From contig CP023991.1 in assembly GCA_003516025.1 (NCBI GenBank), forward strand, positions 30,001-62,000: 32,000 nucleotides of DNA, written 5' to 3'. The notes below the pieces were generated by a model. It was not told the DNA's origin. It ran no database searches and saw nothing but the letters and a program-made list of their open reading frames with translations. Shown here in pieces: positions 1 to 20,240 of the stretch. The number at the start of each line of letters is the position of its first letter. Within the stretch, counting starts at the first letter, position 1. This stretch comes from Candidatus Saccharimonadota bacterium. Lineage in GTDB: Bacteria > Patescibacteriota > Saccharimonadia > Saccharimonadales > UBA4665. The position numbers and the translations under genes are program-made.

Positions 1-2
1 AA

Positions 3-1070
3 GAACGTGCTCTGCAACAAAAATACCGGGCATATAACAACCTCCAGAATGCCAGTGGTGGACGCGTCAAACGGTTTGCTGCCCGCAGGGCAGCGGGGGC
101 GATAGGCGGGTTCAACATTGAATCACAGGTATCTGCCAACAATGCTAAAAACGCCAAGATGATTGACGATCAGACAGCCAACGGGCCCGATAACTTAGTC
201 CGTGCCTACACGGTCAATAAAAGCTACGCTGATAAATTATTGGCTAGTGGCGACTCACGCGCCTCTGACTTCGTCCGTGTCAATAAAGACGCTGCCGGCA
301 ATGAGATTGGTCGTGAATACCGTTCAGTCGGTGGCTCATGGCAAAGCGAAGCCGACGTATTAGCTTCTAACCGCGCCTTTGGCAACAACAACCATGCTGC
401 TTTCCAAAAAGCACTTACCTACGAAATGGGTAAGGCCAACACGCAGGAGGAGCAGGATCACGTTGTCAGTTCTTACGGAGCAGCTGCTGCCCGCTTTGGC
501 ATGACACAGCGCGAAGCAGGAGAGGTCTGGATAGGCTCAGCGTACGCTCAGCAGAACAGCAACCGCCAGTGGAAGCATCACAAGTGGTCAACCGGTTCAG
601 ACGGCATGCTGCACAGTTCTGTTAACGGCCTCGGTATGATGCGCGAAATTGACGAGAAGCAGGGCAACTACCAGATGATGCAGCAGAGTGCCGATACCTG
701 GACTACCATGGGTCAGGAAGTCGTTACCGCCCGGCAGGTTATGGACGGCTCGGTTACTGGTGACCGCGTCAAGGCCGAAGAGACCTTGCAGCGGGCCGCC
801 CGCATCGCGCACGCGACACGTTCCGGCGGTATGTCCCGTTCACCTGTTACCGGCCAGGAAGGTGACGTTACCGGAGCAACGACCGGCGGTGGTGGAGAAG
901 TTGGATCTGGTGCTCCTGGCCGTGTCATGGAAGAGATGAACCGCTTCGTTCAACTTACCGATATGCATGCAGGTAAGTACACTCCGCCGAAAGGCAGCTC
1001 AGCTCCGCCGACAGTTATTCCTGGCGACGTAAGCGAAGGGACTATAAACCGGCGTTCTCCAGATCGGTAA
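3..1070 (+). CDS. hypothetical protein, C-terminal part (ORF runs off the left window edge)
   Basis: The frame of the 159..1070 ORF stays open with no stop back to nt 3 (ERALQQKYRAYNNLQNASGG...), so the Met at 159 is probably internal. The product is hydrophilic and Gly/Gln/Ala-rich, with no motif I recognise. It is co-directional and closely spaced with the PrgI/VirB4 genes. Confidence 0.5.
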   Translation, partial: ERALQQKYRAYNNLQNASGGRVKRFAARRAAGAIGGFNIESQVSANNAKNAKMIDDQTANGPDNLVRAYTVNKSYADKLLASGDSRASDFVRVNKDAAGNEIGREYRSVGGSWQSEADVLASNRAFGNNNHAAFQKALTYEMGKANTQEEQDHVVSSYGAAAARFGMTQREAGEVWIGSAYAQQNSNRQWKHHKWSTGSDGMLHSSVNGLGMMREIDEKQGNYQMMQQSADTWTTMGQEVVTARQVMDGSVTGDRVKAEETLQRAARIAHATRSGGMSRSPVTGQEGDVTGATTGGGGEVGSGAPGRVMEEMNRFVQLTDMHAGKYTPPKGSSAPPTVIPGDVSEGTINRRSPDR

Positions 1071-1090
1071 AAATTCTCACTTACTATTTC

Positions 1091-1119
1091 TTGATAACAT
1101 GGTCTAATAGTTTAGTAAT
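1091..1119 (+). promoter_or_regulatory. candidate sigma70-type promoter (TTGATA-N17-AGTAAT) upstream of the 1132 ORF
   Basis: TTGATA lies at 1091-1096 and AGTAAT at 1114-1119, in the 61-nt spacer after the upstream stop. This is a weak match by eye only. Confidence 0.25.
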
Positions 1120-1131
1120 TTAAGGACTTCT

Positions 1132-1551
1132 ATGGCCTCAGAACGATTTGACACTCCGGTCTACAATGTAATACCCGTGCAACATGAAGATGCCGAAGAT
1201 GGAAAATTCTTTCCATTCCATAACCCTGTTACGGATGCCGAGGGCATTTCCATGATAGTAGGGCTGGTTCCGGCTGCCGATTTGAGCGGTGGTGATCACT
1301 TTAAATATTTGGGCCAGAAAGTTGATCCACCAGTAGAAGTAATGCCTTTACATGGCGTCCGAGGCGATAAAGCGCTCTGGTTTGACTTAAGCACGGTCAA
1401 TGACTCCGCCGCAGCACAGCAGCGCCTTGAAACGGTCCGGCAACTCATGGAAAAGGTGATTAACGTAGGTACGGATCCTCTCGGCTATTTCGAGGCTCGA
1501 TATGAGACAACGAGCGTAACTGAAACACTAGATATCCGCCCGCTGACGTAG
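1132..1551 (+). CDS. hypothetical small acidic protein (139 aa)
   Basis: AAGGA at 1122-1126 sits 5 nt upstream of the ATG. The ORF is clean, with no long competing ORF on the other strand, and has no recognisable motif. It lies inside the T4SS-like operon. Confidence 0.55.
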   Translation: MASERFDTPVYNVIPVQHEDAEDGKFFPFHNPVTDAEGISMIVGLVPAADLSGGDHFKYLGQKVDPPVEVMPLHGVRGDKALWFDLSTVNDSAAAQQRLETVRQLMEKVINVGTDPLGYFEARYETTSVTETLDIRPLT

Positions 1552-1568
1552 TCCGTAACGAAATATTT

Positions 1569-1577
1569 TGCTATACT
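1569..1577 (+). promoter_or_regulatory. candidate extended -10 element (TGcTATACT) 8 nt upstream of the PrgI-like ATG
   Basis: TG is at 1569-1570 and TATACT at 1572-1577, with the ATG at 1586 and no Shine-Dalgarno between them. This geometry would give a leaderless or near-leaderless mRNA. Confidence 0.3.
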
Positions 1578-1585
1578 AAGCATAA

Positions 1586-2743
1586 ATGGCGACGTACAAA
1601 GTTCTCCAGGATATTGAGGCAGAAGACAAGCTGGTGGGCCCGCTGACGCTCCGGCAGTGTATTTATGCTGCCATTGCTATCGTATCCATCTATTTTTCAT
1701 ACTTGGTTATATCCAAAGGCGCAGCCTTTTTGGCAGTCGTATTTCTACCGTTTATTGGTTTTGGCATTTTCTTTGCTTTCCCATGGAACAAGCAGCAGTC
1801 GACCGAAGTTTGGGCACTGGCAAAAGTCCGGTTCGCCCTTAAGCCGCGTAAGCGTATTTGGGATCAGAGCGGTATTAAACAGCTGGTTGCGATTACGGCT
1901 CCGAAGCAGGTTGAGGACCCACGCAAGAATAGCCACATGTCCGAAGTGGAAGTCCGCAACCGCCTGGCGGCCCTGGCGGCTACCGTTGACAGCCGTGGTT
2001 GGGCAGTTAAAAACGTGCCGGGCAATCTATACGCCCAGCAGGGCGGGGTACGGTCTGACCGCCTGATGGAAGGGAGCACGACGTCAGGACCGCAGGTAAT
2101 TGATTACAAGTCGAGCTCGTCAGACGATATGTTCGACCTCGAGCATAATCCATTGGCGCAGCAATTTGATGCCAAGATAAGCGCGGCAACTCAAGCGTAC
2201 CGACAGCAGCTGGTGAACCAGATGAACGCGCCGGAGCAAGCGCAGCCGGCGGTTTCCGATCAAAGCTACTGGTATGCCAGCCAACCTATGCCGGCAGTAT
2301 CAGCGACGTTCGCCCAAGCCCCCATGGCAGCCATGCCAACCCCCGAGGAAGAGGCTTTAGCCCAGGATATCAAACGCCGCCAAGAAATCATGAACGAGGC
2401 CGCCTACGGTAATATTAGCGACCGGATGAAGGTCGTCCTGCCACTATCGCAACAGCCGGTTGTTCAACCAGTACCATTACAGGCGCCGGTCGCGGCAGCT
2501 CCCGCTCCTGATACGACTTCCCAATTGGCAACCCAGATATTAACCGGTCAATCAGCTATGCCAATGCCGCCAATCACTGCGCCAATTCAGCCTGCCGTTC
2601 CAGTGACACCGGTACCAAACCCTGCTATACTTGAACTTGCTAACAACAACGACTTAGATGTGGCAACGATTGCGCGAGTGGCGCACGAAAGTGATCCGAA
2701 CCAGTCAAATGGCTCCAACGAGGTCGTCGTATCACTACATTAA
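1586..2743 (+). CDS. PrgI-family (VirB3-like) T4SS membrane protein with a long Pro/Gln/Ala-rich C-terminal extension
   Basis: The N-terminus YKVLQDIEAEDKLVGPLTLRQCIYAAIAIVSIYFSYLV...FLAVVFLPFIGFGIFFAF is the characteristic PrgI-family opening followed by two TM helices. It lies directly upstream of VirB4, as in Gram-positive T4SS. About 270 extra residues are low-complexity P/Q/A. Confidence 0.75.
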   Translation: MATYKVLQDIEAEDKLVGPLTLRQCIYAAIAIVSIYFSYLVISKGAAFLAVVFLPFIGFGIFFAFPWNKQQSTEVWALAKVRFALKPRKRIWDQSGIKQLVAITAPKQVEDPRKNSHMSEVEVRNRLAALAATVDSRGWAVKNVPGNLYAQQGGVRSDRLMEGSTTSGPQVIDYKSSSSDDMFDLEHNPLAQQFDAKISAATQAYRQQLVNQMNAPEQAQPAVSDQSYWYASQPMPAVSATFAQAPMAAMPTPEEEALAQDIKRRQEIMNEAAYGNISDRMKVVLPLSQQPVVQPVPLQAPVAAAPAPDTTSQLATQILTGQSAMPMPPITAPIQPAVPVTPVPNPAILELANNNDLDVATIARVAHESDPNQSNGSNEVVVSLH

Positions 2744-2790
2744 GGTGTAGTTGCAAACATAAAGCTATGGTGGGATAGTTTCACATTTTT

Positions 2791-3705
2791 ATGAATCCGC
2801 AAATGCCAAATCCACAAGGTCAAGTTCCCAACATGGGACAAGCCCCACAAGGCGGCACTGTACCTTCAGCAGCTCCCGCTGCGATGCCGTTGCCACCGCA
2901 GCCAGCCGCACCGATCCAGGCACCAGTCGGACAGGCAGTCGTCCAGACGGCGCCTCAAACCCGGCCGGCACCACCATCAAACCCAAACAGTACTCAAAAC
3001 ACGCTGCAAATCGCAGAAATCCGTGATGGCATCGTTATTATGAGCGACGGCAGCTTTCGTTCAGTAGTCATGGTAAAAAGTATTAACTTTGACCTTATGA
3101 GCCAGGGCGAACAGGAGGCGGTCGAGTATAGTTACCAAAGCTTCTTAAACTCGCTCTATTTCCCGGTACAGATTTTTATACGCTCCTCCAAGATCGATCT
3201 GCAGCCATATATCGAAAAGCTCGATAAAATACGTACCGAACACGATAATATGCTGCTCGCGCTCCTGATGGACGACTACATTGGCTATATTGACGCTCTA
3301 AGCCAGCAGACTAACATTATGGACAAGAAGTTTTATATAGTCATTCCTTATTTCCCGCATGTTGATACGCAAAAAGCTTTAACACAGAGCAAGAACTTTT
3401 TTAGCGGCTTAGGCGCGCTGCTGAACACCAAGGAACACCAGGTAATCGTCAATGAAGCCGACCTTGAAAAGGCCAAGAGCGAGCTTCGTAACCGCGTACA
3501 AGCGACATTATCGGGATTACTACAGTGCGGTGTCCAGGGACTGCCACTCGATACTCAGGAATTGATTGAGCTCTACTACGACACCTACAACCCCGATACG
3601 GCCGTTCGCCAGCCACTACATGACTTCAATTCACTCAATGGCGATGTAATCACTAAGGGCCAGGGCGCAGCAAATCAGCCGCACCTGGAAAGGGAACTAC
3701 AATAA
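2791..3705 (+). CDS. T4SS accessory protein: P/Q-rich N-terminus plus a domain resembling a VirB4 N-terminal module
   Basis: Residues ~75-200 (IAEIRDGIVIMSDGSFRSVVMVKSINFDLMSQGEQEAVEYSYQSFLNSLYFPVQIFIRSSKIDLQPYIEKL...KKFYIVIPYF) follow the pattern I associate with the N-terminal region of long Gram-positive VirB4/TrsE-type ATPases. Its stop overlaps the VirB4 ATG (TAATG at 3703-3707). Confidence 0.5.
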   Translation: MNPQMPNPQGQVPNMGQAPQGGTVPSAAPAAMPLPPQPAAPIQAPVGQAVVQTAPQTRPAPPSNPNSTQNTLQIAEIRDGIVIMSDGSFRSVVMVKSINFDLMSQGEQEAVEYSYQSFLNSLYFPVQIFIRSSKIDLQPYIEKLDKIRTEHDNMLLALLMDDYIGYIDALSQQTNIMDKKFYIVIPYFPHVDTQKALTQSKNFFSGLGALLNTKEHQVIVNEADLEKAKSELRNRVQATLSGLLQCGVQGLPLDTQELIELYYDTYNPDTAVRQPLHDFNSLNGDVITKGQGAANQPHLERELQ

Positions 3706-5627
3706 TGGCACGTAATAAAAAAGGCGCACAAATTGATCCTGTAGCACTCGCGGAACAGCAGCGAGCCCGTGAACAGCAAGAAGTTAACGTCGCGTTCCAG
3801 CGCGGTTTGACGGCGCTGCGTGACTTTATCGCGCCTAGTTCAATCGAATTTTCAGCCGGCTATTTCCAGCTTGGCACCCGCTATGCTCGGACATTCTTTG
3901 TCTACGGTTACCCGCGGCAGCTGTTTACCGGCTGGATGAGCAGCATGATCAACCTCGACGAAGTTATCGACCTGTCGATGTATATATATCCGGTGGAAAG
4001 CCAGGTGGTACTGGAAAACCTTCGTAAAAAAGTGACGCAGCTGGAAGCTGGTATTCAGATTGACAACGAAAAGGGCCGCATTCGTGATCCAGGTAAACAA
4101 GCGGCCATCCAGGACGCCGAAGAGATGCGCGATAAGTTACAAGTCGGTGAAGAGCGCTTTTTCCGATTCGGCCTGTATTTCACCGTTTACGCGTCAGCGA
4201 TGGACGAACTGGAGTTTATTGCTCATAAAGTCGAAGCCCTGCTTGGCCAGCAGTTAGTCTATTCTAAGGCCGCTACCAGCCAGCAGGAACAGGGACTTAA
4301 CAGCACTGTGCCGCAATTTACCGACCAGTTACAAATTCGCCGCAATATTTCCACCGGCGCCCTCAGCACCAGTTTTCCGTTTACCAGCGCTAACCTCAGC
4401 CAGGAAAATGGCATTTTGTACGGCGTAAACATGCACAACTCCGGACTGGTTATTTTTGACCGCTTCAGCCTGGAAAACGGCAACTCGGTAGTATTCGCCA
4501 AGTCCGGTGCCGGTAAATCGTTCACCGTTAAGCTTGAGGCGCTGCGCAGCCTGATGTTCGGTACTGAAATATTTATTATTGACCCGGAAAATGAATACGA
4601 GCGGATGTGTGACGCCGTTGGCGGGGCCTACGTGCGTTTAAGCCTCGGGAGTAGCACGCGAATTAATCCGTTTGACCTGCCACAGGTAATCGATACCGAC
4701 GAGGCCGACAACGCGCTGCGCTCCAACTTGATTACACTTCACGGGTTGCTTCGTCTCATGATGGGCGGCGCTCAGGCCCAGATGATGGGCGGCAATACCA
4801 CGATGATGCCGGCGCTCAGTCCGGTCGAGGAATCTGACCTGGATAGCGCCCTCATTGAAACCTACGCCAAAGCCGGCATCACTAACGATCCACTGACACA
4901 CACCGGCACGCCGCCGACAATCAATGACCTGTATGACACTTTGCTGCATATGGGCGGCACCGGCCCGCAGTTAGCCCAACGCCTGCGCAAGTATACTACC
5001 GGTACCTTTGCCGGCATCTTCAGCCAGCAGTCCAACGTCAATATCAATAACCCGCTGGTAGTATTCAATATCCGCGACCTGGAAGATGAACTCCGCCCAG
5101 TCGCCATGTACATTGTGCTCAATTACATCTGGAACAAGACTAAAAGCGATCAAAAGAAGCGCATTCTAATCGTTGACGAGGCCTGGCAGTTAATGAAATA
5201 CGAAGACTCGGCCAACTTCCTGTTCAGCCTCGCTAAGCGGGCCCGTAAATATAACCTGGGCATTACGACCATTACCCAGGATGTGGAAGACTTTATGGGT
5301 TCCCGCATGGGTCGCGCAATTGTGGCTAACGCCTCGATGCAGTTCCTGCTGAAACAATCGAGCAGCGCCGTGGATATCCTGGCGGACGTCTTCAAACTTA
5401 CCGGGGAAGAGAAGAAGCGCCTGAGCCAGTTCCCGGTTGGCCAGGGATTATTCTTTGCGGGCCAGAACCATGTACACCTCCAGGTGGTCGCCAGCCCGAC
5501 AGAGACCGGTTTGATTACGACTAACCCGCAGCAGGTGCAGCAAATGGCTACTCAGCAGCAGGGTGGAGATTTCGATCAGCCGCAAGGTACAATTGACCTA
5601 TCAAACCGCTTGTATCCAGGTGTATAA
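3705..5627 (+). CDS. virB4: VirB4/TrsE/PrgJ-type T4SS ATPase (DUF87/AAA-like)
   Basis: Walker A KSGAGKS is at nt 4500-4520 and Walker B ILIVDEAW has its DE at nt 5175-5180. The N-terminal region has the pattern YARTFFVYGYPRQLFTGWMSSMINLDEVIDLSMYIYP typical of Gram-positive VirB4. At 640 aa it is comparable to the short Gram-positive VirB4 forms. Confidence 0.9.
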   Translation: MARNKKGAQIDPVALAEQQRAREQQEVNVAFQRGLTALRDFIAPSSIEFSAGYFQLGTRYARTFFVYGYPRQLFTGWMSSMINLDEVIDLSMYIYPVESQVVLENLRKKVTQLEAGIQIDNEKGRIRDPGKQAAIQDAEEMRDKLQVGEERFFRFGLYFTVYASAMDELEFIAHKVEALLGQQLVYSKAATSQQEQGLNSTVPQFTDQLQIRRNISTGALSTSFPFTSANLSQENGILYGVNMHNSGLVIFDRFSLENGNSVVFAKSGAGKSFTVKLEALRSLMFGTEIFIIDPENEYERMCDAVGGAYVRLSLGSSTRINPFDLPQVIDTDEADNALRSNLITLHGLLRLMMGGAQAQMMGGNTTMMPALSPVEESDLDSALIETYAKAGITNDPLTHTGTPPTINDLYDTLLHMGGTGPQLAQRLRKYTTGTFAGIFSQQSNVNINNPLVVFNIRDLEDELRPVAMYIVLNYIWNKTKSDQKKRILIVDEAWQLMKYEDSANFLFSLAKRARKYNLGITTITQDVEDFMGSRMGRAIVANASMQFLLKQSSSAVDILADVFKLTGEEKKRLSQFPVGQGLFFAGQNHVHLQVVASPTETGLITTNPQQVQQMATQQQGGDFDQPQGTIDLSNRLYPGV

Positions 5628-5675
5628 TATTTAACAGACATTAGAGACTGTCTGTAACGTTTTAGGTGAATACTC

Positions 5676-8600
5676 GTGCCGACATATGATGATCAAAAAT
5701 CAGACACTGACAAAAAATTCGACGATTTAGTCGGACGTAACTTCAAGCCAGGTGAAGCCGACCAGATTGAGGCTGGCGCGCGTGACGCCGAACAGCAACG
5801 GGTTGATAACGAATTTAATAACATCGTTGGCGGTGAAAGTAGCGGCGCGGATTCCAGTAAGTCAGACGGTAACACCCAAGCTGCGGATAAGAGCGAACTC
5901 CGGGGTAAAGAAACGGATGGCGCTCAAGATGGTAAACAATCTGGAGACGCCTCTCAGCCATCGTCCGACGATCAGGATGACGGCGCAAAAAAAACCGGCT
6001 TCCGTGGTTGGAGCCGGCGCAAAAAAGTCGGCGTGGGACTAACCTCTATACTGTTAGGCGGCGGCGCTACCGGTTTTGGTTTTCTCATGTTATTGTCGCC
6101 GATAGCTAAAGTGGAAACTGTTATGAACAGTATCGATTCGTTTTATGGTGCCGCTAATGAGAGCGCCATTGATACGGCCACTCAAAACGCCCTTAATGGT
6201 TACCTGGTTAAAAAAGTCTTTCCAAACCTCGGCCGAGGTAACTGCCACACGACCAGAGACGCCGCCTGTACGGCAACCGCCTCAGACGCCTCCAATCCAA
6301 TTGGCGCTTTATATAACGCCTGGAAAGAGGATCGTATCGAGCAAAAACTGGCCAACAATTACGGCCTCGTTTTCGGTCGGAAGGGCGGCGGTAACGGGAC
6401 ACTATACATTAACGTCAACGGCAGGGATATCGACCTTAAAAATGGTGGCAATATTTGGGACAGCGCGGATACAAAAGCGTCCACTAAAAACGAAATCCGT
6501 AACGCCATTAAGACCAACTTCAAGGAAGCGTCGTTGTATGACAGGTACTACACCCGTTATAAGGTTGGTAAGTTAGTCGAGCAAAAGTACGGCGTTAAAC
6601 GCTGTACTTTTAAGTGCGACCTGCGTGACAACTTTAGCGACAACGTAGACACCAAGAAAAAGGCTGCTAAGGCACTGCTGATTCGAAGGGTCATCGGTCC
6701 GTTCAGCGAGAATACCGCGCTTGCGCTGACGTGCGTAATGGATGGAAGTTGTAACTTGGAACCTGATAATTCTCACGACATTACTGATGACAACCAGGTT
6801 GAACGGCGCAGTGATTTTAGCAGTAAAGTGCAGAGCCAGGTCAATAAATTCGCCCTGGAGTATGGCAGTGATAAGCTTGCCGACCTGTCGAAACAAGTTG
6901 ACGCCATGGGCGACGACGGCGTTATGAAGTACGCCATGCGAGCCACCCTCAGTAAGGTTTTAGGTAAAGAAATCAGTGGCGAAGCGATCGATAAAGTCGC
7001 TACGCCCATTGGCTGGATAAACTTCGCAGCCCAAATTATCAACTTCGTGGATACCGCCGGTCCAAAGATGCAAAAAATATCATTTGCGCTGTCGACAACC
7101 ATGGCAGTGCAGACGTATATGATGTACGTAACCGCGGGCAACGAGGCCCGAGCCGGGCAAACCGACATGACACAGTTCGGGAGTCTCAGCGATTCACTCA
7201 CCACGGCATCGGTCGACGATGAAGGCGATAGCTCAGATATGACGGCAACACCGATGTATCAGGAGATTATAAACCGGGGTACCACTAGCACGGATAGCAG
7301 TGTGGCATCGCTATTCAACCCACAGGCATACGCCGCTACTAGCACTAAATACACCTGTAACGACAATAAAGAGCTGCCAGCGGGCCAAAAAGTCTGCCCG
7401 GAGGAGGTCGTTAATGGTGGTAATAGCTACGCCACCGCCTTAACCGAGGGCGCGCAGACGATTCCCGGCTGGGGAGCACTGAGCAACGTCGCTCATGTGT
7501 GGACGAGTATTGTCGGTAAAGCTTTCGGTGCGATTGGCGATGTCGCAGGCGCCGCGTTATCACTCCTTCCAGGTTGGGATAACCTTATGAATACGGTCGC
7601 CGGGTGGGTCACGCCTCTATTTACCTGGGTAGCTAAATCAGTAATCCCGAATTTACTTGGCTCTCTGACTGGCGGCCGGTTGGTTGACGTGCTAATGATC
7701 GGCGCCAATACTACGTATAACGTGAGCGCGGGCACGCAGCTCGGTGCTGGCCGCGTGTCGGACGAAGACATAGCGCAGGTGCGAACCGCTTATCTCGACC
7801 AGCAGGAACAGGAGTTCCAGAGTAAAAGCCTGTATGCCAGAATATTTGATACTGAATCACCCCACTCATTAGTAACCCAGATGGCGGCAGCAATGCCGAC
7901 CACCAATAACTTCGCCTCCTCGTTCGGGAAGCTCGCCAGCAACCCATTCGGCCACCTGAGTACGGCAATATTCAGCGCCTTTACACCAAGCCGGGCATTC
8001 GCCGCAGTTTCAGCTCAGCCGGATCCGTTCGGAGTGCCCCAGTTGGCCGTACTGCCGCAAGACATTCCCGAGAATGTTGATGACACCTGGTGGAACCAGA
8101 ACTGCCCGGCAGATTACGTACAAAAATTCCTGGACAGCCAGACTGAAGACCCGACTACCGGCATGATGGTCGCCAGCGAGACCGACCCATGCTTTATCTA
8201 TAAAACGGTCAGCCAGGTTGCCGGTGGAAAATCTGATCCAAAGTTGCTGCCCAAGGACACGACGAGCACAACACAGACAGACGCAGCTGCCGGATCAGGC
8301 GACCTAAGCCTCGTGAGCGGTGACACCATGAGCCTCGCCAAACAAATCATGGATAAAGCTAACGATCCGAACGGCAGCATTAAATTCCAGACACCGGCCA
8401 ATAAGTCAGCCTTTCAGCGCGTCGTAGATACAGGTCATGCCGCAAACTGTGGTGGACCGGCTATCTCATCGAAGCTTCTAGGCGTAATCCTCACACTGTC
8501 TAAGAGTTACAAGCTTGTACTTGGCGTGTTTGTAGACGGACATGATTGTGATAGCGGCAATCATCCGAAAGGTGCGGCGGTTGATATCAATGGCGTCAAC

Positions 8601-8849
8601 CCACTGAACGGGGGCAGCGGCGGTACAGGTAATCAGTTGCATTTCGAATCTGCGTCCATGCCTATCATCCGAGAGTTTTACCAAAGGGCGGGTGAAGTAC
8701 TGGCCGCCAGTGGAGGCGGCGGACTTGGCCAGTACGGCACGTATGACGGCCGCCAATGTTTTGCCGGAACCTTGCCACCAAAAGTGCAAGGTGTAGCCTA
8801 CTTCCCGGACAGTTGTACACACTTACACATGGACACCAGAGGAAAATAA
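5676..8849 (+). CDS. large membrane protein with a C-terminal LAS-superfamily (M15A / YcbK-MepK-like) zinc peptidase domain
   Basis: GTG start with AGGTGA at 5664-5669. The first ~115 aa are acidic and disordered, followed by a strong TM helix at aa ~118-143 (nt 6027-6104). At the C-terminus, NHPKGAAVDI gives H-x6-D (His 8562-8564, Asp 8583-8585). GGGGLGQY and THLHMDTRG (HLH at 8818-8826) follow in the same order and spacing as E. coli MepK (LHMQGKAMDF ... GGVGYY ... FVHIDTG). Confidence 0.7.
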   Translation: MPTYDDQKSDTDKKFDDLVGRNFKPGEADQIEAGARDAEQQRVDNEFNNIVGGESSGADSSKSDGNTQAADKSELRGKETDGAQDGKQSGDASQPSSDDQDDGAKKTGFRGWSRRKKVGVGLTSILLGGGATGFGFLMLLSPIAKVETVMNSIDSFYGAANESAIDTATQNALNGYLVKKVFPNLGRGNCHTTRDAACTATASDASNPIGALYNAWKEDRIEQKLANNYGLVFGRKGGGNGTLYINVNGRDIDLKNGGNIWDSADTKASTKNEIRNAIKTNFKEASLYDRYYTRYKVGKLVEQKYGVKRCTFKCDLRDNFSDNVDTKKKAAKALLIRRVIGPFSENTALALTCVMDGSCNLEPDNSHDITDDNQVERRSDFSSKVQSQVNKFALEYGSDKLADLSKQVDAMGDDGVMKYAMRATLSKVLGKEISGEAIDKVATPIGWINFAAQIINFVDTAGPKMQKISFALSTTMAVQTYMMYVTAGNEARAGQTDMTQFGSLSDSLTTASVDDEGDSSDMTATPMYQEIINRGTTSTDSSVASLFNPQAYAATSTKYTCNDNKELPAGQKVCPEEVVNGGNSYATALTEGAQTIPGWGALSNVAHVWTSIVGKAFGAIGDVAGAALSLLPGWDNLMNTVAGWVTPLFTWVAKSVIPNLLGSLTGGRLVDVLMIGANTTYNVSAGTQLGAGRVSDEDIAQVRTAYLDQQEQEFQSKSLYARIFDTESPHSLVTQMAAAMPTTNNFASSFGKLASNPFGHLSTAIFSAFTPSRAFAAVSAQPDPFGVPQLAVLPQDIPENVDDTWWNQNCPADYVQKFLDSQTEDPTTGMMVASETDPCFIYKTVSQVAGGKSDPKLLPKDTTSTTQTDAAAGSGDLSLVSGDTMSLAKQIMDKANDPNGSIKFQTPANKSAFQRVVDTGHAANCGGPAISSKLLGVILTLSKSYKLVLGVFVDGHDCDSGNHPKGAAVDINGVNPLNGGSGGTGNQLHFESASMPIIREFYQRAGEVLAASGGGGLGQYGTYDGRQCFAGTLPPKVQGVAYFPDSCTHLHMDTRGK

Positions 8850-10138
8850 TGCAAGCCCTGTTCATACACACCAGACGAATTACAACTATAATTATCAGCC
8901 TGGTAGTCTTTGCCGTGTCAGTGCTTTCCAGTGGCGTAGCACAGGCTCAAGCTGTTAAATGCCCCGCGAATATAAAAGATAACCTCGGCCAGTGCAGTTG
9001 TCCGGTTGGGACGTCCGACATGGATTGTCAGGCTTTGATGGGGCCATGGCCAAACTGGGATCCGTTAAGCAATAATTACGCTAGTTGTGACGCCGCAGCC
9101 GCCACGGCGCTGACAGGCTCCGATAACGCCCAAAAAGTCTACAATTTTTTGATCGGTAAAGGTTTAAAACCATGGATGGCAGCCGGCTTTTTGGGAAATA
9201 TCTGGGAAGAATCAGCTCATGAGTTTGACCCAACGATCGTCCAGGGAGGCGGCCACGCCGATAACATCACCGTAGACGGAGTTACCGGTTACGGTATCAT
9301 TCAGTGGACATCGAAAGGACGCCAACAGGGCCTGGCTGACCTTGCTAAAGAGCGAGGGGTAAAATCAGGTGATCTTGGCGTGCAGTTGGAATACATTTGG
9401 CAGGAACTCAATACCGGCTATACGACATCTACTCTAAACCCATTACTCGCCAGCACTAATGTTACTGATGCCACGCATATCATCGAGCTGCATTACGAAA
9501 TCCACGCGGCTCCACCCATTCACCCGATTCGCACCGAAAAAGCCATTGGCTACTTAGCCTTGTACGGATCGGGCGCCGGTGACGCTTCGGCAACCGTACC
9601 AGCCACCGCCGTTGCCAGCGGATGTGGTGCCGCGGCTGGAGCTCTCGGTGGCGCGGTTGACGGTTTTATATTCCCACTCGTCACTACTCAGGGCGCCATT
9701 AAAGGCAATAAGCCGTACCCTTGGTGCTCTACCGCGATGGCTAACTGCCACCACGATTACAATGCCGCCGACATCATGACAGCCGAGGGCACACAAGTTG
9801 TCGCCGCCTATCCAGGCACGGTTGTCATGACCGAGAACATTGCCGGAAAAAATGCCGATGTCGCTATTATGGGTGACGATAAAAATGTTTATTTCTATCA
9901 ACATATGGCGCCAGGGAGTCTCCAGGTTCAAAAAGGAGCTAAAGTTACCGCTGGAACACCACTTGGCAAAGTAGGTAACCGGGCGGCGGCTTTCGGCACC
10001 GATCCTCATCTGCATTTCGACATGCTACCGCCGCCAAACACCAACCGCATGGGATGCGCCTCGGCGGCTTGCTCAAAATACCCGTTCATCAACGTACAAC
10101 CGATTTTAGTTAAAGCATTCCAGGCATTGCCACAATAA
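8849..10138 (+). CDS. secreted bifunctional cell-wall hydrolase: lysozyme-like (phage-tail-lysozyme type) domain + M23 metallopeptidase domain
   Basis: I prefer the start at 8849 (TAATG overlap with the upstream stop), which gives the signal peptide MQALFIHTRRITTIIISLVVFAVSVLSSGVAQAQA. AAGFLGNIWEES...GYGIIQWTSKGRQ...LEYIWQEL is the lysozyme-like motif set (EES at 9206-9214). The C-terminus VVAAYPGTVV...GTPLGKVGN...TDPHLHFDM is the M23 signature (HLH at 10007-10015). Confidence 0.8.
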   Translation: MQALFIHTRRITTIIISLVVFAVSVLSSGVAQAQAVKCPANIKDNLGQCSCPVGTSDMDCQALMGPWPNWDPLSNNYASCDAAAATALTGSDNAQKVYNFLIGKGLKPWMAAGFLGNIWEESAHEFDPTIVQGGGHADNITVDGVTGYGIIQWTSKGRQQGLADLAKERGVKSGDLGVQLEYIWQELNTGYTTSTLNPLLASTNVTDATHIIELHYEIHAAPPIHPIRTEKAIGYLALYGSGAGDASATVPATAVASGCGAAAGALGGAVDGFIFPLVTTQGAIKGNKPYPWCSTAMANCHHDYNAADIMTAEGTQVVAAYPGTVVMTENIAGKNADVAIMGDDKNVYFYQHMAPGSLQVQKGAKVTAGTPLGKVGNRAAAFGTDPHLHFDMLPPPNTNRMGCASAACSKYPFINVQPILVKAFQALPQ

Positions 10139-10146
10139 GGCCTTTT

Positions 10147-11679
10147 ATGAAAGGGGACGGAAACAATATGAGACAAAAGGTAATAGCAGGCATCAGCCTG
10201 ATCGCGATTGTCAGTGTTTTAGCCTGGGTGGCGACACATGGAAAACTGCACGTTACCGTAGCCGGCGGTAACGGCGACGGCACCTATCATTACCAGTTTA
10301 ATGACAACGAAGCCGAGCCAGTGCTTGATAAAACCACCGGTGTTTCAGTCAGCAAGCTCGTCTCACGTGGCACATATGAGGTGGTCGTTACCGGCAATGG
10401 CGGCAGTTACGTGGGAACAACTCAGACCAAAGGTTTCTTAGGCACTCAGGACGTCCAGGCAGCAATGGAAGCCGAGAACGAACGCAGCTTCGTAGGATCA
10501 AACCCCGATAGCTGTATGTTCTATACCGATCGTCTCATATCGGGGCCATGCGGCGGCGCGCTCAGCGACCTCAAAATCCATCAGCCAGCATCCTCGGCGC
10601 AACCATCTTACGTTGAAAACCTGGCGGTTGATAACTACAACAGCTCATCGACTACTACGCAAATCGTGGAAACCTCAGGCAAACTGCTCGGTCTTACCGC
10701 CCAATCGCAAGAAGACGCCAGTGGCCCGGCAGGTTATTACTTATTTACGTTTAATCCGAATTTTTCAGTAGCAAAGCGTCAACTACTGACTAATCTGTCG
10801 ATATCTGACGCCTATTTTGCCCGGCCCTATAAAGACGGCATGATGCTCTATGACAGTACTATGCGCGCCTGGTACGTTTCGGATGCCTCAGAGGAGGCCC
10901 AAGACCTCCATATCGACTCACCCAAGGATGACAAACTCAAAGTTGGCCTAGTGACGACTGCCGGCGACACCATTACTGCCGTCTATACCGACCAGTCTAC
11001 CGGTATCGACACCGAAGGAGCGTCAGCAGAAGCGTCAAAAGGCAAAAGTGAAGTCGTAGTATTCAAAAACAACAAGAACACTCATTTCATCTTTGACTCA
11101 GTTGTTGTAACTGCGCAGGTATGCGGCACCGACAAGCTATGCGTCGTATCCGACATCGGGCTCAAGGTATACGACATTAGTTCCGGCGAACTGAAACACC
11201 TTTATACGTTATCGGGAGTCGAAGACTTTTTTGAAATAAATAATAGGGTTTTGGCAGTCACCGAACAGGGTATCATGACGTATGACGCCGATAAGCAACA
11301 GGGTTATTTTAGCTACCTGTTCGACAAATACCAGTACTGCGGTTTAAGCATTGCCAGTAACGGCTACCTGTTATGCGTTACCGACCCCAAGGGCCAGCGG
11401 CAGGCCCTGTACGTTAATCCAGACAGTAAAGATGCCACGGCTATAGACAAAAAGGTGGCTGGCTTATTCGCGACAACCGGCATATCCAACCTCTCGATAT
11501 ATGGTAATTACCTGTACATCACCCCGAATTATGGCGAAGGCACCTATGACTGGAGTACCCGGACGCAAAGTTACGACCCGGCCAAGAAAGCAGCCACTGA
11601 CACCGCCATTGCCCAGGCAGTCGCTAAAGCAGGCATCGACACTGCGCGGTACCAAGTCATCAACATCGGCCAACAATAA
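10147..11679 (+). CDS. membrane-anchored hypothetical protein, beta-rich ectodomain
   Basis: An N-terminal TM/signal anchor (VIAGISLIAIVSVLAWVATHG) is followed by an Ig-like-looking segment and repeated beta-strand-like motifs (LKVYDISSGELKHLY, IMTYDADKQQGYFSY, ALYVNPD). The alternative start at 10168 has a better SD (AGGGGA at 10151-10156). No family recognised. Confidence 0.6.
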   Translation: MKGDGNNMRQKVIAGISLIAIVSVLAWVATHGKLHVTVAGGNGDGTYHYQFNDNEAEPVLDKTTGVSVSKLVSRGTYEVVVTGNGGSYVGTTQTKGFLGTQDVQAAMEAENERSFVGSNPDSCMFYTDRLISGPCGGALSDLKIHQPASSAQPSYVENLAVDNYNSSSTTTQIVETSGKLLGLTAQSQEDASGPAGYYLFTFNPNFSVAKRQLLTNLSISDAYFARPYKDGMMLYDSTMRAWYVSDASEEAQDLHIDSPKDDKLKVGLVTTAGDTITAVYTDQSTGIDTEGASAEASKGKSEVVVFKNNKNTHFIFDSVVVTAQVCGTDKLCVVSDIGLKVYDISSGELKHLYTLSGVEDFFEINNRVLAVTEQGIMTYDADKQQGYFSYLFDKYQYCGLSIASNGYLLCVTDPKGQRQALYVNPDSKDATAIDKKVAGLFATTGISNLSIYGNYLYITPNYGEGTYDWSTRTQSYDPAKKAATDTAIAQAVAKAGIDTARYQVINIGQQ

Positions 11680-11680
11680 C

Positions 11681-12742
11681 CTACAGCGGAATAATATGGC
11701 TCTTGTCCATAAAATGATGAACAACCACATCGGCATCGGTAGTAGTTATAAATGTCTGGTAGTCCTGCAGATAATTAGTCAGGGCCTGACGACGCGCGCC
11801 GTCAAGTTCACTAAAAACATCATCTAGTAGGAGTAGGGGAGCAGTCCCACGGGCCTGCTGGACGAGTTGTAGTTCCATGACTTTTAACATCAGTACGGCC
11901 GTCCGGGTTTCACCGCGCGAAGCCGAAGTCTGGGCCAGTCGTCCATTAATAAGCACCCGCAGGTCTTCGCGGTGTGGGCCATTTCCCGTAAAACCGCGGG
12001 CCACGTCTAGGTCAATGGTAGCTTCCAGTAAACGAAGCAGGCCAGACTCATAACTATCCGTAGGCAATTTGGTTTCGTACTGCAGCTCTACAGTCTGCTT
12101 ATGCTGTTCATTCTTATGCGCCAGGCTGCCGTAGAGGCCGCTAGCCTGGACATTCATACCATTAAGCAACTCCAGGCGTGCCCGGGCGATGCGGCCGCCC
12201 AATTCGCTTAATCGAATGTTCCATGGAAAAATTTGTCCCGCGGCAGCCGGGCCCAGTTTTTTAAGCAGGGCATTCCGCTGCGCCAGTACTCGCCGGTAAT
12301 CTTTACGGAGAGTGCTGTAGCCGGGCTGGATCTGCTCAAGCAGCCCATCAAGATAACTGCGGCGCAGTTCCGGAGCACCCGAGAACATAAACAGGTGGTT
12401 TGGTTCAAATACGACAGTCGGGATGGATTTTTGCATACTGAGCCGGCGGTACAGCTTACCCTCGATTTCGTATGTTTTTGCCGGGCGTGGTTCGGTAACA
12501 ATCTTAACCGTTCGTAGCCCCGTGTCATCACGGGCGTCAAGCCGTGCCCATGGCTGGTCGTAGGCTAGCAGTTCACTATCGCTCACGCGGTACGAACTGC
12601 CTTGAGCAACCACCAGTATAGACTCCAAGAGATTTGTCTTACCACTGGCATTGGGGCCAACAATGATATTTACCCCTGGTGTAAACTCAAAAGCTTCGTC
12701 AGCATACGACCGGAAGTGCTGCAGGCGGATATCGTAGATCAT
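11681..12742 (-). CDS. recF: DNA replication and repair protein RecF
   Basis: MIYDIRLQHFRSYADEAFEFTPGVNIIVGPNASGKTNLLESI carries the RecF N-terminus and Walker A, and LLLLDDVFSELD is the Walker B/signature region. It sits in the canonical position after dnaN. Confidence 0.95.
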   Translation of the reverse strand: MIYDIRLQHFRSYADEAFEFTPGVNIIVGPNASGKTNLLESILVVAQGSSYRVSDSELLAYDQPWARLDARDDTGLRTVKIVTEPRPAKTYEIEGKLYRRLSMQKSIPTVVFEPNHLFMFSGAPELRRSYLDGLLEQIQPGYSTLRKDYRRVLAQRNALLKKLGPAAAGQIFPWNIRLSELGGRIARARLELLNGMNVQASGLYGSLAHKNEQHKQTVELQYETKLPTDSYESGLLRLLEATIDLDVARGFTGNGPHREDLRVLINGRLAQTSASRGETRTAVLMLKVMELQLVQQARGTAPLLLLDDVFSELDGARRQALTNYLQDYQTFITTTDADVVVHHFMDKSHIIPL

Positions 12743-12763
12743 TAAGAACTATTATACGGAGAT

Positions 12764-13861
12764 TTAACTCTTTAGCGGCATGATGATATGCGCGTAGTCA
12801 TCATTATTCGGATCTTTTAGTAAAGTCGGTTCAAGCTTGCCATTAAAGCTAAACGTTACTTCATCACCCGAAAAGGCGTGCAGGGCATCAAGCAGGTAGC
12901 GCGAGTTAAGCGTAATGGAACCGCTACCGGCAATCGTTCCGCTGGCGCTGGCCGTGTTTTCACCAAGCTGCGAAGCAACCGAGCGGATACTTAGCTCACC
13001 AGAGGTCTCATCGACGTTAATCGTGATACTGCCGGCGCTTTCGCGGGCGAACAGGCTGGATACCTTGGTGACGTTTACCAGATCTGCCCGCTTTAAGCGG
13101 GCCTCGACGGCGAATGAAGTGGGGATGAGTTTCCGGTAATCCGGATACTTGCCGTCAATCAGACGAGCCACCAGATCAACGTCATTTGCCTGGAACAGTA
13201 TCTGCTGATCGTCATGCGTGACGCTCATAATCTCATCATAATCACCAATAATACGTAACAGGTCCTGAATAGCGGTTGCGGGGATTAGCAGGCGAACGTC
13301 CTGGTCGTTCTTGCTGAGGTTTTTCTCGGCCAGCCGGTAACTGTCAGTAGCCGCGGCATACAGCCTGCCTTCGCTTACCTGTAGTAATACCCCGGTAAGT
13401 ACCGGCCGGGATTCGTCACTGGAGGCAGCCATAATAACTTGCTGGAGACCTTTCTTAAGCGTGGCGGCATTTATCGTCCAGGTATTACCATTACTTATCT
13501 CCGGCATAACGGGGAAGTCGTCGGCAAGCACACCGTTAACCACAGACTGGTATTTATCTGTGGATATATGCAGCTTATTGTCATCGAGCTTCAGGTCAAT
13601 CACGCCGCTCGGCAAACTGGAGATAAAATCCTGCATGAGGCGGGCTGGAACCGTAATGGCACCTTCCTCGACAACTTTGGCTCCAATATGTTGACTGATG
13701 GCAATATCGAGATTAGTGGCTGATATCGTTAATCGGTTACCGACTGTTTTAACCAATACGTTCGCCAGTATCGGCAAAGTATTCCGTGCACTCGCCACCC
13801 GTGCAACTATTCCAAGAGCTTTGTTGAGGTTTTCCTGTGTGACCTGTAACTGCATATTCAC
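12764..13861 (-). CDS. dnaN: DNA polymerase III beta sliding clamp
   Basis: The N-terminus LQVTQENLNKALGIVARVASARNTLPILANVLVKT is typical of DnaN. At 365 aa it sits immediately downstream of dnaA/oriC. Confidence 0.95.
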   Translation of the reverse strand: MNMQLQVTQENLNKALGIVARVASARNTLPILANVLVKTVGNRLTISATNLDIAISQHIGAKVVEEGAITVPARLMQDFISSLPSGVIDLKLDDNKLHISTDKYQSVVNGVLADDFPVMPEISNGNTWTINAATLKKGLQQVIMAASSDESRPVLTGVLLQVSEGRLYAAATDSYRLAEKNLSKNDQDVRLLIPATAIQDLLRIIGDYDEIMSVTHDDQQILFQANDVDLVARLIDGKYPDYRKLIPTSFAVEARLKRADLVNVTKVSSLFARESAGSITINVDETSGELSIRSVASQLGENTASASGTIAGSGSITLNSRYLLDALHAFSGDEVTFSFNGKLEPTLLKDPNNDDYAHIIMPLKS

Positions 13862-13880
13862 ATGCTCCTTACTTTCTTCT

Positions 13881-14132: not shown

Positions 14133-14160
14133 GAATAGATCAGATAGCTTACCTAATAGA

Positions 14161-15627: not shown

Positions 15628-15656
15628 ACTATAATTGCCCATATCGGACTTTTCCA
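15628..15656 (-). promoter_or_regulatory. candidate dnaA promoter whose -35 lies inside a DnaA box
   Basis: On the minus strand TGGAAA (15656-15651) - N17 - TATAGT (15633-15628). The -35 lies within the DnaA box TGTGGAAAA (complement of 15650-15658). GAGGGAG lies 11 nt upstream of the dnaA ATG. Confidence 0.35.
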
Positions 15657-20230: not shown

Positions 20231-20240
20231 ACCTCAAAAG

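What the first reader, a model, noticed from the sequence alone, without database searches (positions are those of the whole stretch)
1..11679. T4SS-derived gene block (PrgI/VirB3 + VirB4) joined to cell-wall hydrolases, with no conjugation functions in view, beside oriC
Seen: eight co-directional ORFs are separated by 0-60 nt or by TAATG stop/start overlaps (3703-3707, 8847-8851). The only recognisable secretion parts are a PrgI/VirB3-like 2-TM protein and a VirB4 ATPase (Walker A nt 4500-4520, Walker B nt 5175-5180). They are followed by three peptidoglycan-hydrolase domains and a membrane-anchored beta-rich protein. No relaxase, VirD4-type coupling ATPase, integrase or att-like repeat is visible. 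The right boundary is the core gene recF, 1 nt away. Established: VirB3 + VirB4 + a cell-wall hydrolase is the conserved core of Gram-positive conjugative T4SS. Inference: in a compact genome right next to the origin, this looks like a domesticated chromosomal T4SS-like machine. It is a candidate host-contact or envelope-breaching apparatus of an epibiotic small-genome bacterium rather than a plasmid/ICE transfer system. About half of its proteins (3-1070, 1132-1551, 10147-11679, most of 5676-8849) have no family I can name.
Basis: partly seen in the sequence, partly recalled or inferred. Interest (0 to 1): 0.8.

Follow-up and report, generated by a model that had tools for sequence, protein, structure and literature searches.

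The report
Saccharibacterial chromosomal type IV secretion locus
This is the origin-proximal, non-conjugative type IV secretion gene cluster that Saccharibacteria (tiny bacteria that live on other bacteria) are already known to carry and to need for growth on their host.

Summary
Eight tightly packed co-directional ORFs (gaps 61, 34, 47, -1, 48, -1, 8 nt) end 1 nt from recF, next to dnaN, dnaA, rpmH, rnpA and clustered DnaA boxes.

The parts list can be extended:
- ORF1 is the C-terminal end of an 864-aa VirB6-like protein. An identical metagenome contig shows five VirB2-like pilin genes just upstream.
- ORF4 is TrsD-like, a detached VirB4 N-domain.
- The ORF6 C-terminus has LAS (Hedgehog/DD-peptidase) zinc motifs.
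- ORF8 is a membrane-anchored beta-sandwich plus 7-bladed propeller.
- ORF2 is an orphan.

The whole order (Hsp20, pilins, VirB6, PrgI, TrsD, VirB4, variable hydrolase region, recF, dnaN, dnaA) recurs in dozens of Saccharimonadales species. It carries no relaxase, coupling protein, integrase or att repeats, so it is not an ICE.

It matches, gene by gene in order and size, the Southlakia epibionticum ML1 T4SS (SEML1_0004-0019). That system was shown by Tn-seq to be essential for epibiotic growth (Wang 2023) and was surveyed across Patescibacteria, origin proximity included (Quinonero-Coronel 2025).

One possibly new point emerged. The motor is extremely conserved (VirB4 about 85% identity, above DnaA), while the downstream proteins carry swappable lytic or phosphoesterase domains. 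This favours a host-envelope target. Interest is low to moderate.

The parts
3..1070 (+). C-terminal 355 aa (hydrophilic domain) of an 864-aa extended VirB6-like polytopic membrane protein. The gene starts 2.6 kb left of the window.
   Evidence: L001 is 100% identical to window 1-10883 and holds the full gene at L001 2215-4809. It has 7-8 hydrophobic helices at aa 244-478. A precomputed PF19590 TrbL_3 hit was not reproduced by hmmscan here. Six of 43 orthologues hit PF04610 TrbL/VirB6. tblastn detects it in 63 of 80 sister loci.
1132..1551 (+). Orphan ORF: 139 aa, acidic (pI 4.6), no TM segment. It lies in a variable slot between the VirB6-like gene and prgI.
   Evidence: No relative in 80 sister loci, and none in a 5.8-billion-cluster protein database except itself. 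About half of sister loci have no gene in this slot. The identical protein is called on 5 contigs.
1586..2743 (+). PrgI/VirB3-like 2-TM protein with a long P/A/Q-rich C-terminal extension.
   Evidence: PF12666 at E 3.1e-11 over aa 5-91. TM segments at aa 25-43 and 47-65. Present in 74 of 80 sister loci.
2791..3705 (+). TrsD/TraD-like protein, equivalent to a detached N-terminal domain of VirB4. It is translationally coupled to virB4 through a TAATG overlap.
   Evidence: NCBIfam TrsD NF041427 at E 1.9e-6. It also matches the N-terminal 100-250 positions of two VirB4 profiles, while the VirB4 ORF matches only positions 182-733 of the CD1110 profile. A precomputed PF26593 TraC-like hit exists. 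Sister loci show 63-84% identity.
3705..5627 (+). VirB4 ATPase of the MPF-FATA / CD1110 family, with intact Walker A and Walker B motifs.
   Evidence: PDB 4AG5 VirB4 at E 5e-47. The closest plasmid-borne relatives are 29-38% identical and come from Firmicutes and Actinobacteria. Median identity across sister genomes is 85%.
5676..8849 (+). 1057-aa membrane-anchored protein. From N to C: acidic disordered N-terminus, one TM segment at aa 122-140, a family-specific core of about 700 aa with no known fold, and a C-terminal LAS-type (Hedgehog/DD-peptidase) zinc-peptidase-like domain at aa ~890-1057.
   Evidence: TM segment and positive-inside RRKK. H-x6-D plus HxH motifs, and a profile hit to Sonic hedgehog N-domain at E 0.004. 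The family profile hits VanY/LdcB structures at 1e-11 through VanY-type members. The family has 1318 representatives with swappable C-termini. The AlphaFold2 model failed with pLDDT 31.8.
8849..10138 (+). Secreted or anchored two-domain cell-wall hydrolase: signal peptide, Cys-rich linker, phage-tail-type lysozyme, M23 metallopeptidase.
   Evidence: PF18013 at E 1.7e-27 and PF01551 at E 1.1e-14. N-terminal hydrophobic segment ending in AQA. Positional orthologues in 57 loci carry varied lytic domains.
10147..11679 (+). Membrane-anchored surface protein: N-terminal TM helix, beta-sandwich (aa ~31-118), 7-bladed beta-propeller.
   Evidence: AlphaFold2 pLDDT 81.6, pTM 0.78. Foldseek against the PDB finds generic propellers such as RACK1, YCF48 and BamB at E about 1e-6. 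Proteins in the same slot elsewhere carry PEGA, CarboxypepD_reg or Big_5 domains.
11681..15576 (-). recF, dnaN and dnaA. These core genes fix the right boundary of the cluster.
   Evidence: Pfam. Syntenic in sister genomes.
13862..14160 (.). dnaN-dnaA spacer with 4 near-consensus DnaA boxes. Three more lie at 15650-15756, upstream of dnaA. This is the likely oriC region.

Best explanation
The block is the right-hand two thirds of the conserved chromosomal type IV secretion system of Saccharimonadia (Saccharibacteria/TM7). It is orthologous in gene order and content to SEML1_0004-0019 of Southlakia epibionticum ML1.

Shown here:
- Parts list. A divergent array of five VirB2-like pilins lies just outside the window. 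Then come an extended VirB6-like channel protein, an orphan ORF, PrgI/VirB3, a split VirB4 (TrsD-like N-domain plus ATPase), a large membrane-anchored protein with a C-terminal LAS peptidase-like domain, a lysozyme-M23 hydrolase, and an anchored beta-propeller protein.
- Location. The cluster sits at a fixed chromosomal site between Hsp20/comF and recF-dnaN-dnaA-oriC in many species.
- Not mobile. It has no relaxase, coupling protein, integrase or att repeats.

Inferred mechanism:
- VirB4, docked to the membrane through TrsD, PrgI and VirB6, powers assembly of a VirB2-type pilus or conduit in a monoderm envelope.
- The three extracytoplasmic proteins encoded downstream act at the cell surface. 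They open peptidoglycan, most plausibly that of the host bacterium at the attachment site as well as the epibiont's own wall.
- The conduit can then reach the host envelope and move proteins or host-derived material.

The cytoplasmic motor is under very strong purifying selection. The surface-exposed parts evolve fast and exchange enzymatic domains, as expected for a host-interface machine.
For: Parts.

Synteny. In sister loci with enough flank, the gene order is conserved, from the pilins through VirB4 and a variable region to recF, dnaN and dnaA. Hsp20 and a ComF-type gene lie beyond the pilins.

Match to ML1. Gene order, sizes and domain calls agree: SEML1_0003 recF, 0006 lysozyme, 0007 (1114 aa) with a Hedgehog/DD-peptidase C-terminus, 0008 VirB4, 0009, 0010 PrgI, 0011/0013 VirB6-like, 0014-0019 pilins. 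Nearly all are scored essential in Tn-seq (PMC10633639 Tables S1/S2; text).

Conservation gradient across 48 genomes, as median amino-acid identity:
- VirB4 85%, TrsD 70%.
- Housekeeping comparison: DnaA 72%, DnaN 69%, RecF 56%.
- Pilins 37-47%, VirB6 34%, ORF6 29%, ORF7 32%, ORF8 30%.

Domain swapping:
- Position +2 proteins carry Phage_lysozyme2 (36 of 57), combined variously with M23, CHAP, NlpC/P60, Amidase_3, GDSL, SLT_2, glucosaminidase or GH3.
- ORF6-family C-termini include the LAS HxH type, VanY, GDSL, EEP, M23, beta-lactamase-like, Amidase_3+YkuD, PF04185 phosphoesterase and Tyr-phosphatase.
- Phosphoesterase, EEP and phosphatase modules are hard to explain as self-wall remodelling.

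Literature: PMC12102498, PMC12857230, PMC7427843.
Against: - No experiment or computation here shows what is transported, or whether the hydrolases act on host or self peptidoglycan. Conjugative Gram-positive T4SSs also need a VirB1-like hydrolase for their own wall.
- The VirB6 assignment rests on weak sequence evidence.
- The LAS assignment for ORF6 is marginal (E 0.004), and hhalign against VanY-type orthologues aligned only the HxxGxAxD motif (probability 11%).
- The ORF6 core has no structural model.
- The identity comparison is biased, because sister loci were chosen by VirB4 similarity.
- A coupling protein encoded elsewhere in the genome cannot be excluded from a 32-kb window. The literature finds such genes far from virB4 in many Patescibacteria.
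Confidence: 0.85

Rival explanations
1. Import machine. The T4SS works inwards, like ComB of Helicobacter or Ced of Sulfolobales. It takes up host DNA, RNA or nucleotides for an organism that cannot make them. The hydrolases only open the path.
For: - PMC11665869 proposes this, because competence (comEC) is dispensable but the T4SS is essential.
- VirB4 gives partial hits to the CedB and CedD DNA-import ATPase models (1.9e-15 and 2.1e-5).
- A ComF-type gene flanks the pilin array in sister genomes.
- A 2026 preprint reports host RNA feeding and tubular structures, possibly T4SS pili, in another Patescibacterium.
- Some ORF6-family C-termini are EEP nuclease/phosphatase-type.
Against: - The CedB/CedD hits cover only the shared P-loop region and fall far below cut-off.
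- No DNA-binding or channel component specific for import is recognisable.
- The direction of transport cannot be read from sequence.
- This rival is compatible with most of the evidence for the best explanation, so it is a variant of it rather than an alternative.
Confidence: 0.2
2. Pilus or adhesion organelle only. The system builds a VirB2-type pilus for attachment. The hydrolases serve solely to pierce the epibiont's own wall, the classical VirB1/PrgK/CwlT role. Nothing is translocated.
For: - Five pilin paralogues lie next to the cluster.
- No coupling protein or recognisable substrate is present.
- VirB1-like hydrolases are standard assembly factors of Gram-positive T4SSs (PMC12102498).
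Against: - Self-wall remodelling does not predict the extensive swapping of lytic, lipase, phosphoesterase and phosphatase modules while the motor stays about 85% identical.
- Saccharibacteria already use type IV pili for adhesion and motility (PMC10633639).
Confidence: 0.15
3. Ordinary integrative conjugative element or plasmid remnant that happens to lie next to the origin.
For: VirB4 belongs to the CD1110/MPF-FATA conjugative family. Its nearest annotated relatives are on plasmids of Firmicutes and Actinobacteria.
Against: - The same site and gene order recur in dozens of species-level genomes.
- There is no relaxase, T4CP, integrase or flanking repeat.
- GC content is the same as in the neighbouring core genes.
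- VirB4 is more conserved than DnaA.
- Plasmid relatives are only 29-38% identical.
Confidence: 0.02

Closest known systems
T4SS of Candidatus Southlakia epibionticum ML1 (SEML1_0004-0019; Wang et al. 2023, PMC10633639) and the 'Patescibacteria clade' T4SS (Quinonero-Coronel et al. 2025, PMC12102498)
   Same: - Same class of organism.
- Same position next to recF-dnaN-dnaA.
- Same order: pilin array, VirB6-like, PrgI, TrsD-like, VirB4, then a protein of about 1100 aa with a Hedgehog/DD-peptidase C-terminus, then a phage-tail-lysozyme hydrolase, then small exported beta-sandwich proteins.
- No relaxase or coupling protein in the cluster.
   Different: - This locus has one VirB6-like gene where ML1 has two, and no NTF2-like gene.
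- It has an orphan 139-aa ORF in that slot.
- The lysozyme is paired with M23 rather than glucosaminidase plus a Cys-peptidase.
- The last gene is a 510-aa beta-sandwich plus propeller protein, where ML1 has two small PEGA/prealbumin-like proteins.
- It has five pilins rather than six.
- Sequence-level orthology to ML1 itself was not computed, because the ML1 sequences were not in hand.
Gram-positive conjugative T4SS of the MPF-FATA class (CTn2/CD1110 subclass, pCF10 Prg, pGO1 Trs, ICEBs1)
   Same: - VirB4 passes the NCBIfam CD1110-family cut-off.
- It shares PrgI/VirB3, TrsD and VirB6-like components.
- It has a bifunctional wall hydrolase, analogous to PrgK, TraG, CwlT or TcpG.
   Different: - No relaxase, T4CP, oriT or adhesin.
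- It has VirB2-like pilins, which Gram-positive systems lack.
- It is fixed in the chromosome and vertically conserved.
- VirB4 is only 29-38% identical.
T4CP-less effector T4SSs (Bordetella Ptl, Brucella VirB) and the Xanthomonas bacteria-killing X-T4SS
   Same: - They work without a relaxase. Ptl and Brucella VirB also lack a coupling protein.
- X-T4SS delivers peptidoglycan-degrading effectors to a neighbouring bacterium.
- McLean 2020 compared the TM7x locus to ptx/ptl.
   Different: - Those are diderm MPF-T systems with an outer-membrane core complex.
- X-T4SS effectors use a VirD4-recognised XVIPCD signal.
- Neither feature is present here.
Polymorphic toxin/effector architecture (conserved N-terminal carrier with a variable C-terminal enzymatic domain, as in LXG, Rhs and CdiA)
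   Same: The ORF6 family has a conserved core of about 850 aa. Its C-terminal extensions are absent or drawn from at least 13 unrelated sequence clusters, which include peptidases, amidases, lipase/esterase, EEP, phosphoesterase and Tyr-phosphatase.
   Different: - No immunity gene was identified.
- The protein is predicted to be anchored by an N-terminal TM segment rather than released.
- No homology to known carrier domains.
- This is a resemblance of architecture only.

Membership tests
Type IV secretion system (any class) | VirB4-family ATPase with intact Walker A and Walker B motifs | tested here: met
   NCBIfam conju_CD1110 at 362.6 bits against a cut-off of 325. Pfam P-loop_TraG and AAA_10. 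PDB 4AG5 at 5e-47. Motifs lie at nt 4500-4520 and 5175-5180.
Type IV secretion system (any class) | Membrane translocon partners VirB3 and VirB6 encoded nearby | tested here: met
   PrgI PF12666 at E 3e-11. The VirB6-like assignment is weaker: 7-8 TM helices, a precomputed TrbL_3 hit, and 6 of 43 orthologues hitting TrbL. It was not reproduced for this protein by hmmscan.
Conjugative T4SS / ICE | Relaxase and type IV coupling protein (VirD4/TcpA) associated with the cluster | tested here: not met
   None found in the 32-kb window, the 3.7-kb left extension, or the flanks of sister loci. The rest of the genome was not available.
Conjugative T4SS / ICE | Integrase, flanking att repeats, and variable presence or site among relatives | tested here: not met
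   No integrase, and only chance-level repeats. The chromosomal site and order are identical in dozens of species. GC content equals that of the neighbouring core genes.
Patescibacteria/Saccharimonadia-clade T4SS (Wang 2023; Quinonero-Coronel 2025) | MPF-FATA-related VirB4 with TrsD and PrgI next to it | tested here: met
   A VirB4 phylogeny was not built. Placement rests on 82-90% identity to VirB4 of Saccharimonadales MAGs.
Patescibacteria/Saccharimonadia-clade T4SS (Wang 2023; Quinonero-Coronel 2025) | Array of VirB2-like pilin genes in the cluster | tested here: met
   Five PF18895 genes on L001 100-2003, all above the gathering cut-off. They lie just outside the window, on a contig 100% identical to it.
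Patescibacteria/Saccharimonadia-clade T4SS (Wang 2023; Quinonero-Coronel 2025) | Chromosomal location near dnaA/dnaN, with peptidase and lysozyme genes directly downstream of virB4 | tested here: met
.
Patescibacteria/Saccharimonadia-clade T4SS (Wang 2023; Quinonero-Coronel 2025) | Required for epibiotic growth | not testable with these tools
   Shown by Tn-seq for ML1 only (PMC10633639).
LAS / Hedgehog-DD-peptidase zinc peptidases (ORF6 C-terminal domain) | H-x(3-6)-D and H-x-H zinc-ligand motifs in a Hedgehog/DD-peptidase fold | tested here: inconclusive
   Both motifs are present: HPKGAAVD, and HLH near the C-terminus. They are conserved in 9-10 similar orthologues. The profile hits Sonic hedgehog N-domain at E 0.004 and aligns both motifs. 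There is no Pfam hit. hhalign against VanY-type orthologues gave probability 11%. No usable structure model was obtained.

The most novel reading that the evidence does not exclude
The two or three genes downstream of virB4 may not be mere VirB1-type assembly factors. They may be the working end of the machine. In this reading, ORF6 represents a large unannotated family: 1318 representatives, a conserved core of about 850 aa, and no Pfam or PDB relative. The family would be membrane-anchored carriers whose C-terminal enzymatic module is exchanged between species. Modules seen include LAS and VanY peptidases, amidase, GDSL esterase, EEP, phospholipase-C-type phosphoesterase and Tyr-phosphatase. 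The exchange would match the envelope chemistry of each epibiont's host. That would make it a polymorphic-effector logic coupled to a T4SS in a monoderm. I did not find this pattern described in the papers read here.
Probability: 0.3. Interest if true: 0.6.

Novelty: already known. Interest (0 to 1): 0.3.

Why it matters
The Saccharibacterial T4SS is one of the few machines known to be essential for the epibiotic lifestyle of the candidate phyla radiation, and its function is still open. This window adds no new kind of system. It confirms that the published architecture holds in another environmental Saccharimonadales lineage.

The comparative pattern seen here is an ultra-conserved motor alongside surface enzymes that exchange domains. 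That pattern gives a concrete, testable handle on what the machine does: test the C-terminal modules of the ORF6 and ORF7 families against host and self cell envelopes.

Tried and rejected
- AlphaFold2 on full-length ORF6 with a 5-sequence alignment failed (pLDDT 31.8), so no fold search was possible for its core.
- phmmer of the ORF6 C-terminus alone against the PDB found nothing meaningful. Only the profile did.
- hhalign of the window-type against the VanY-type C-terminal domains aligned just the HxxGxAxD motif. Common ancestry of the two subtypes is therefore not demonstrated.
- BLASTP of ORF4 against the window's own VirB4 found nothing. The link is visible only through family profiles.
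- Profiles of the VirB6-like family and of the ORF6 core against the PDB gave no informative hit outside the C-terminal peptidase.
- The precomputed Pfam hits TrbL_3 and TraC-like could not be reproduced.
- Word-based homologue searches for ORF6, ORF8 and ORF2 returned only 5, 4 and 1 proteins.
- Rfam, tRNA, repeat and promoter/terminator scans gave nothing relevant.
- The ICE reading was considered and rejected (see rival explanations).
- The 1-Mb source contig could not be retrieved, so the genome was not searched for a distant T4CP or relaxase.

Full report
**What is in the window**

The + strand of 1-11679 carries eight ORFs separated by 61, 34, 47, -1, 48, -1 and 8 nt. Two of the junctions are TAATG stop/start overlaps. 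The block ends 1 nt from the convergent recF. Next come dnaN, dnaA, rpmH (15911-16048), rnpA, yidC and jag/KhpB.

The window holds 17 near-consensus DnaA boxes against 6.9 +/- 2.4 expected. Seven of them sit in the two spacers flanking dnaA.

A metagenome contig (L001) is 100% identical to window 1-10883 and extends it 3739 nt to the left. It shows two things:
- ORF1 is the hydrophilic C-terminal third of an 864-aa polytopic protein with 7-8 TM helices and a precomputed TrbL_3 hit. I call it VirB6-like on weak evidence. hmmscan here did not reproduce the hit, and 6 of 43 orthologues hit TrbL.
- A divergent array of five VirB2-like pilin genes precedes it, all above the PF18895 cut-off.

Other parts resolved here:
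- ORF4 matches the TrsD/TraD model and the N-terminal part of VirB4 models. The VirB4 ORF matches only positions 182-733 of the CD1110 model, which it passes at 362.6 bits against a cut-off of 325. ORF4 and ORF5 together therefore look like a split VirB4.
- ORF6 has an acidic disordered N-terminus, one TM segment and a large extracytoplasmic part. Its C-terminal ~170 aa carry H-x6-D and HxH motifs. A profile of that domain finds Hedgehog N-domains (the LAS fold) at E 0.004, aligning both zinc motifs.
- ORF7 has a signal peptide, a phage-tail lysozyme and an M23 domain.
- ORF8 is modelled with confidence (pLDDT 81.6) as a TM helix, a beta-sandwich and a 7-bladed beta-propeller. Its structural matches are generic propellers only.
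- ORF2 is an orphan in a variable slot.

**Not a mobile element**

The VirB4 has relatives in at least 573 GTDB species representatives. The 80 best are Saccharibacteria/Patescibacteria-labelled MAGs, apart from one contig labelled Dormiibacterota, at 82-90% identity. In those with enough flank the order is constant: pilins (-), VirB6-like, PrgI, TrsD, VirB4, a 4.6-8.7 kb variable region, then recF, dnaN, dnaA. Beyond the pilins lie Hsp20 and a ComF-type gene.

No relaxase, coupling protein, integrase or att-like repeat occurs in the window or its extension. GC content matches that of the adjacent core genes. The source genome is about 1.0 Mb.

**Already published**

Wang et al. 2023 (PMC10633639) describe an 'apparent T4SS (SEML1_0006-0019)' in Southlakia epibionticum ML1. 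It resembles Gram-positive conjugative systems, carries essential pilins and lacks coupling and relaxase proteins.

Their tables list the same neighbourhood:
- recF (0003).
- Two small exported beta-sandwich proteins (0004 and 0005).
- A lysozyme protein with PF18013 (0006).
- A 1114-aa protein ending in a Hedgehog/DD-peptidase domain (0007).
- VirB4 (0008), an unnamed 294-aa protein (0009), PrgI (0010).
- VirB6-like proteins (0011 and 0013).
- Six pilins (0014-0019).

Nearly all are scored essential.

Quinonero-Coronel et al. 2025 (PMC12102498) surveyed 2,474 Patescibacterial virB4 genes. They report the MPF-FATA ancestry, TrsD, PrgI, pilin arrays, the near absence of relaxases, and the proximity to dnaA/dnaN. 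McLean 2020 (PMC7427843) had already noted conservation across Saccharibacteria. A 2025 review treats these systems as a recognised T4SS subgroup.

What the machine transports is still 'completely unknown' (PMC11665869).

**What the comparison adds**

Median amino-acid identities to the window, within 48 sister genomes:

| Protein | Median identity |
|---|---|
| VirB4 | 85% |
| DnaA | 72% |
| TrsD | 70% |
| DnaN | 69% |
| RecF | 56% |
| Pilins | 37-47% |
| PrgI | 40% |
| VirB6-like | 34% |
| ORF7 | 32% (detected in 27 of 48) |
| ORF8 | 30% (detected in 4 of 48) |
| ORF6 | 29% (detected in 17 of 48) |

One caveat applies: the loci were chosen by VirB4 similarity.

The positions after virB4 are conserved as slots but not as sequences:
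- Slot +2 carries Phage_lysozyme2 in 36 of 57 loci. It is combined variously with M23, CHAP, NlpC/P60, Amidase_3, GDSL, SLT_2, C39_2, glucosaminidase or GH3.
- Slot +3 and beyond carry PEGA, CarboxypepD_reg or Big_5 domains, or weak propeller hits.
- The ORF6 family (slot +1) has 1318 representatives at 50% clustering, with a conserved core of about 850 aa.
- Among its 139 closest members, 34 have no C-terminal extension and 101 have one of at least 100 aa. The extensions fall into 13 unrelated sequence clusters:
  - 50 are the LAS HxH type, as in the window.
  - 22 are GDSL plus VanY.
  - 18 are EEP, with or without M23 or a Tyr-phosphatase.
  - Single cases include beta-lactamase-like, Amidase_3+YkuD, NlpC/P60, PF04185 phosphoesterase and an HEXXH protein.

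A self-wall assembly role does not predict this repertoire. A host-envelope target does. This is inference, not demonstration.

**Mechanism, with status**

Shown:
- The parts list.
- The fixed chromosomal site.
- The absence of conjugation genes nearby.
- The conservation gradient.
- The domain swapping.

From the literature: essentiality of the orthologous genes in ML1.

Inferred:
- VirB4, with TrsD, PrgI and VirB6, assembles a VirB2-type pilus or conduit.
- ORF6, ORF7 and ORF8 act outside the membrane to open cell wall at the epibiont-host contact.
- The system exports proteins or imports host material. The direction is unknown.

**Verdict**

The system is already known. Interest is 0.3, mainly for the polymorphic downstream modules, which give a testable lead on an open functional question.

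Noticed in passing
window 20000-32000: A surface-polysaccharide cluster has GC 0.41-0.47, against 0.49-0.55 in the first 20 kb. It contains GT4, GT2, an ABC-2 permease plus ATPase, a DegT aminotransferase, WbqC, an ATP-grasp protein, an FkbM methyltransferase, two more GT2 genes and an 850-aa GT1. It may be a horizontally acquired island.
   Followed up: partly
window 1132-1551: The 139-aa acidic ORF has no detectable relative anywhere except identical copies. It sits in a slot between the VirB6-like gene and prgI. That slot is empty in about half of sister genomes and holds unrelated ORFs in the rest.
   Followed up: yes
window 11679-11681: The ORF8 and recF stop codons are 1 nt apart and convergent. 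No terminator-like hairpin lies between them, so the transcripts probably overlap.
   Followed up: no
window 3705-5627 versus 14161-15576, compared with 48 sister loci: VirB4 (median 85% identity) is more conserved than DnaA (72%) and DnaN (69%) in the same genomes. The figure is subject to selection bias, because the loci were picked by VirB4 similarity.
   Followed up: partly
window 7458-7715 (ORF6 aa ~595-680): A G/A/V/L-rich, moderately hydrophobic stretch (Kyte-Doolittle 1.0-1.4) lies inside the presumed extracytoplasmic part of ORF6. It might interact with a membrane. This is unexplained.
   Followed up: no
window 1586-2743 (ORF3 aa ~100-385): The PrgI domain covers only aa 5-91. The remaining ~290 aa form a P/A/Q-rich extension with no family match.
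   Followed up: no
L022 (DATLRC010000014.1): This contig is labelled Candidatus Dormiibacterota. It carries the Saccharimonadales T4SS-recF-dnaN-dnaA block with 86% VirB4 identity, so it is probably mis-binned.
   Followed up: no
sister loci, VirB6-like orthologues (alignment A8): Two of 43 VirB6-like orthologues carry a Peptidase_S74 domain (endosialidase chaperone, of the phage tail-fibre type).
   Followed up: no
sister loci, slot before recF (alignment A3): Among the 81 sister-locus proteins from the slot between the hydrolase genes and recF, one carries a PIN domain and one a FitA-like ribbon-helix-helix domain. I did not check whether the two lie in the same locus; if they do, they would form a toxin-antitoxin pair.
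   Followed up: no
   Followed up: partly
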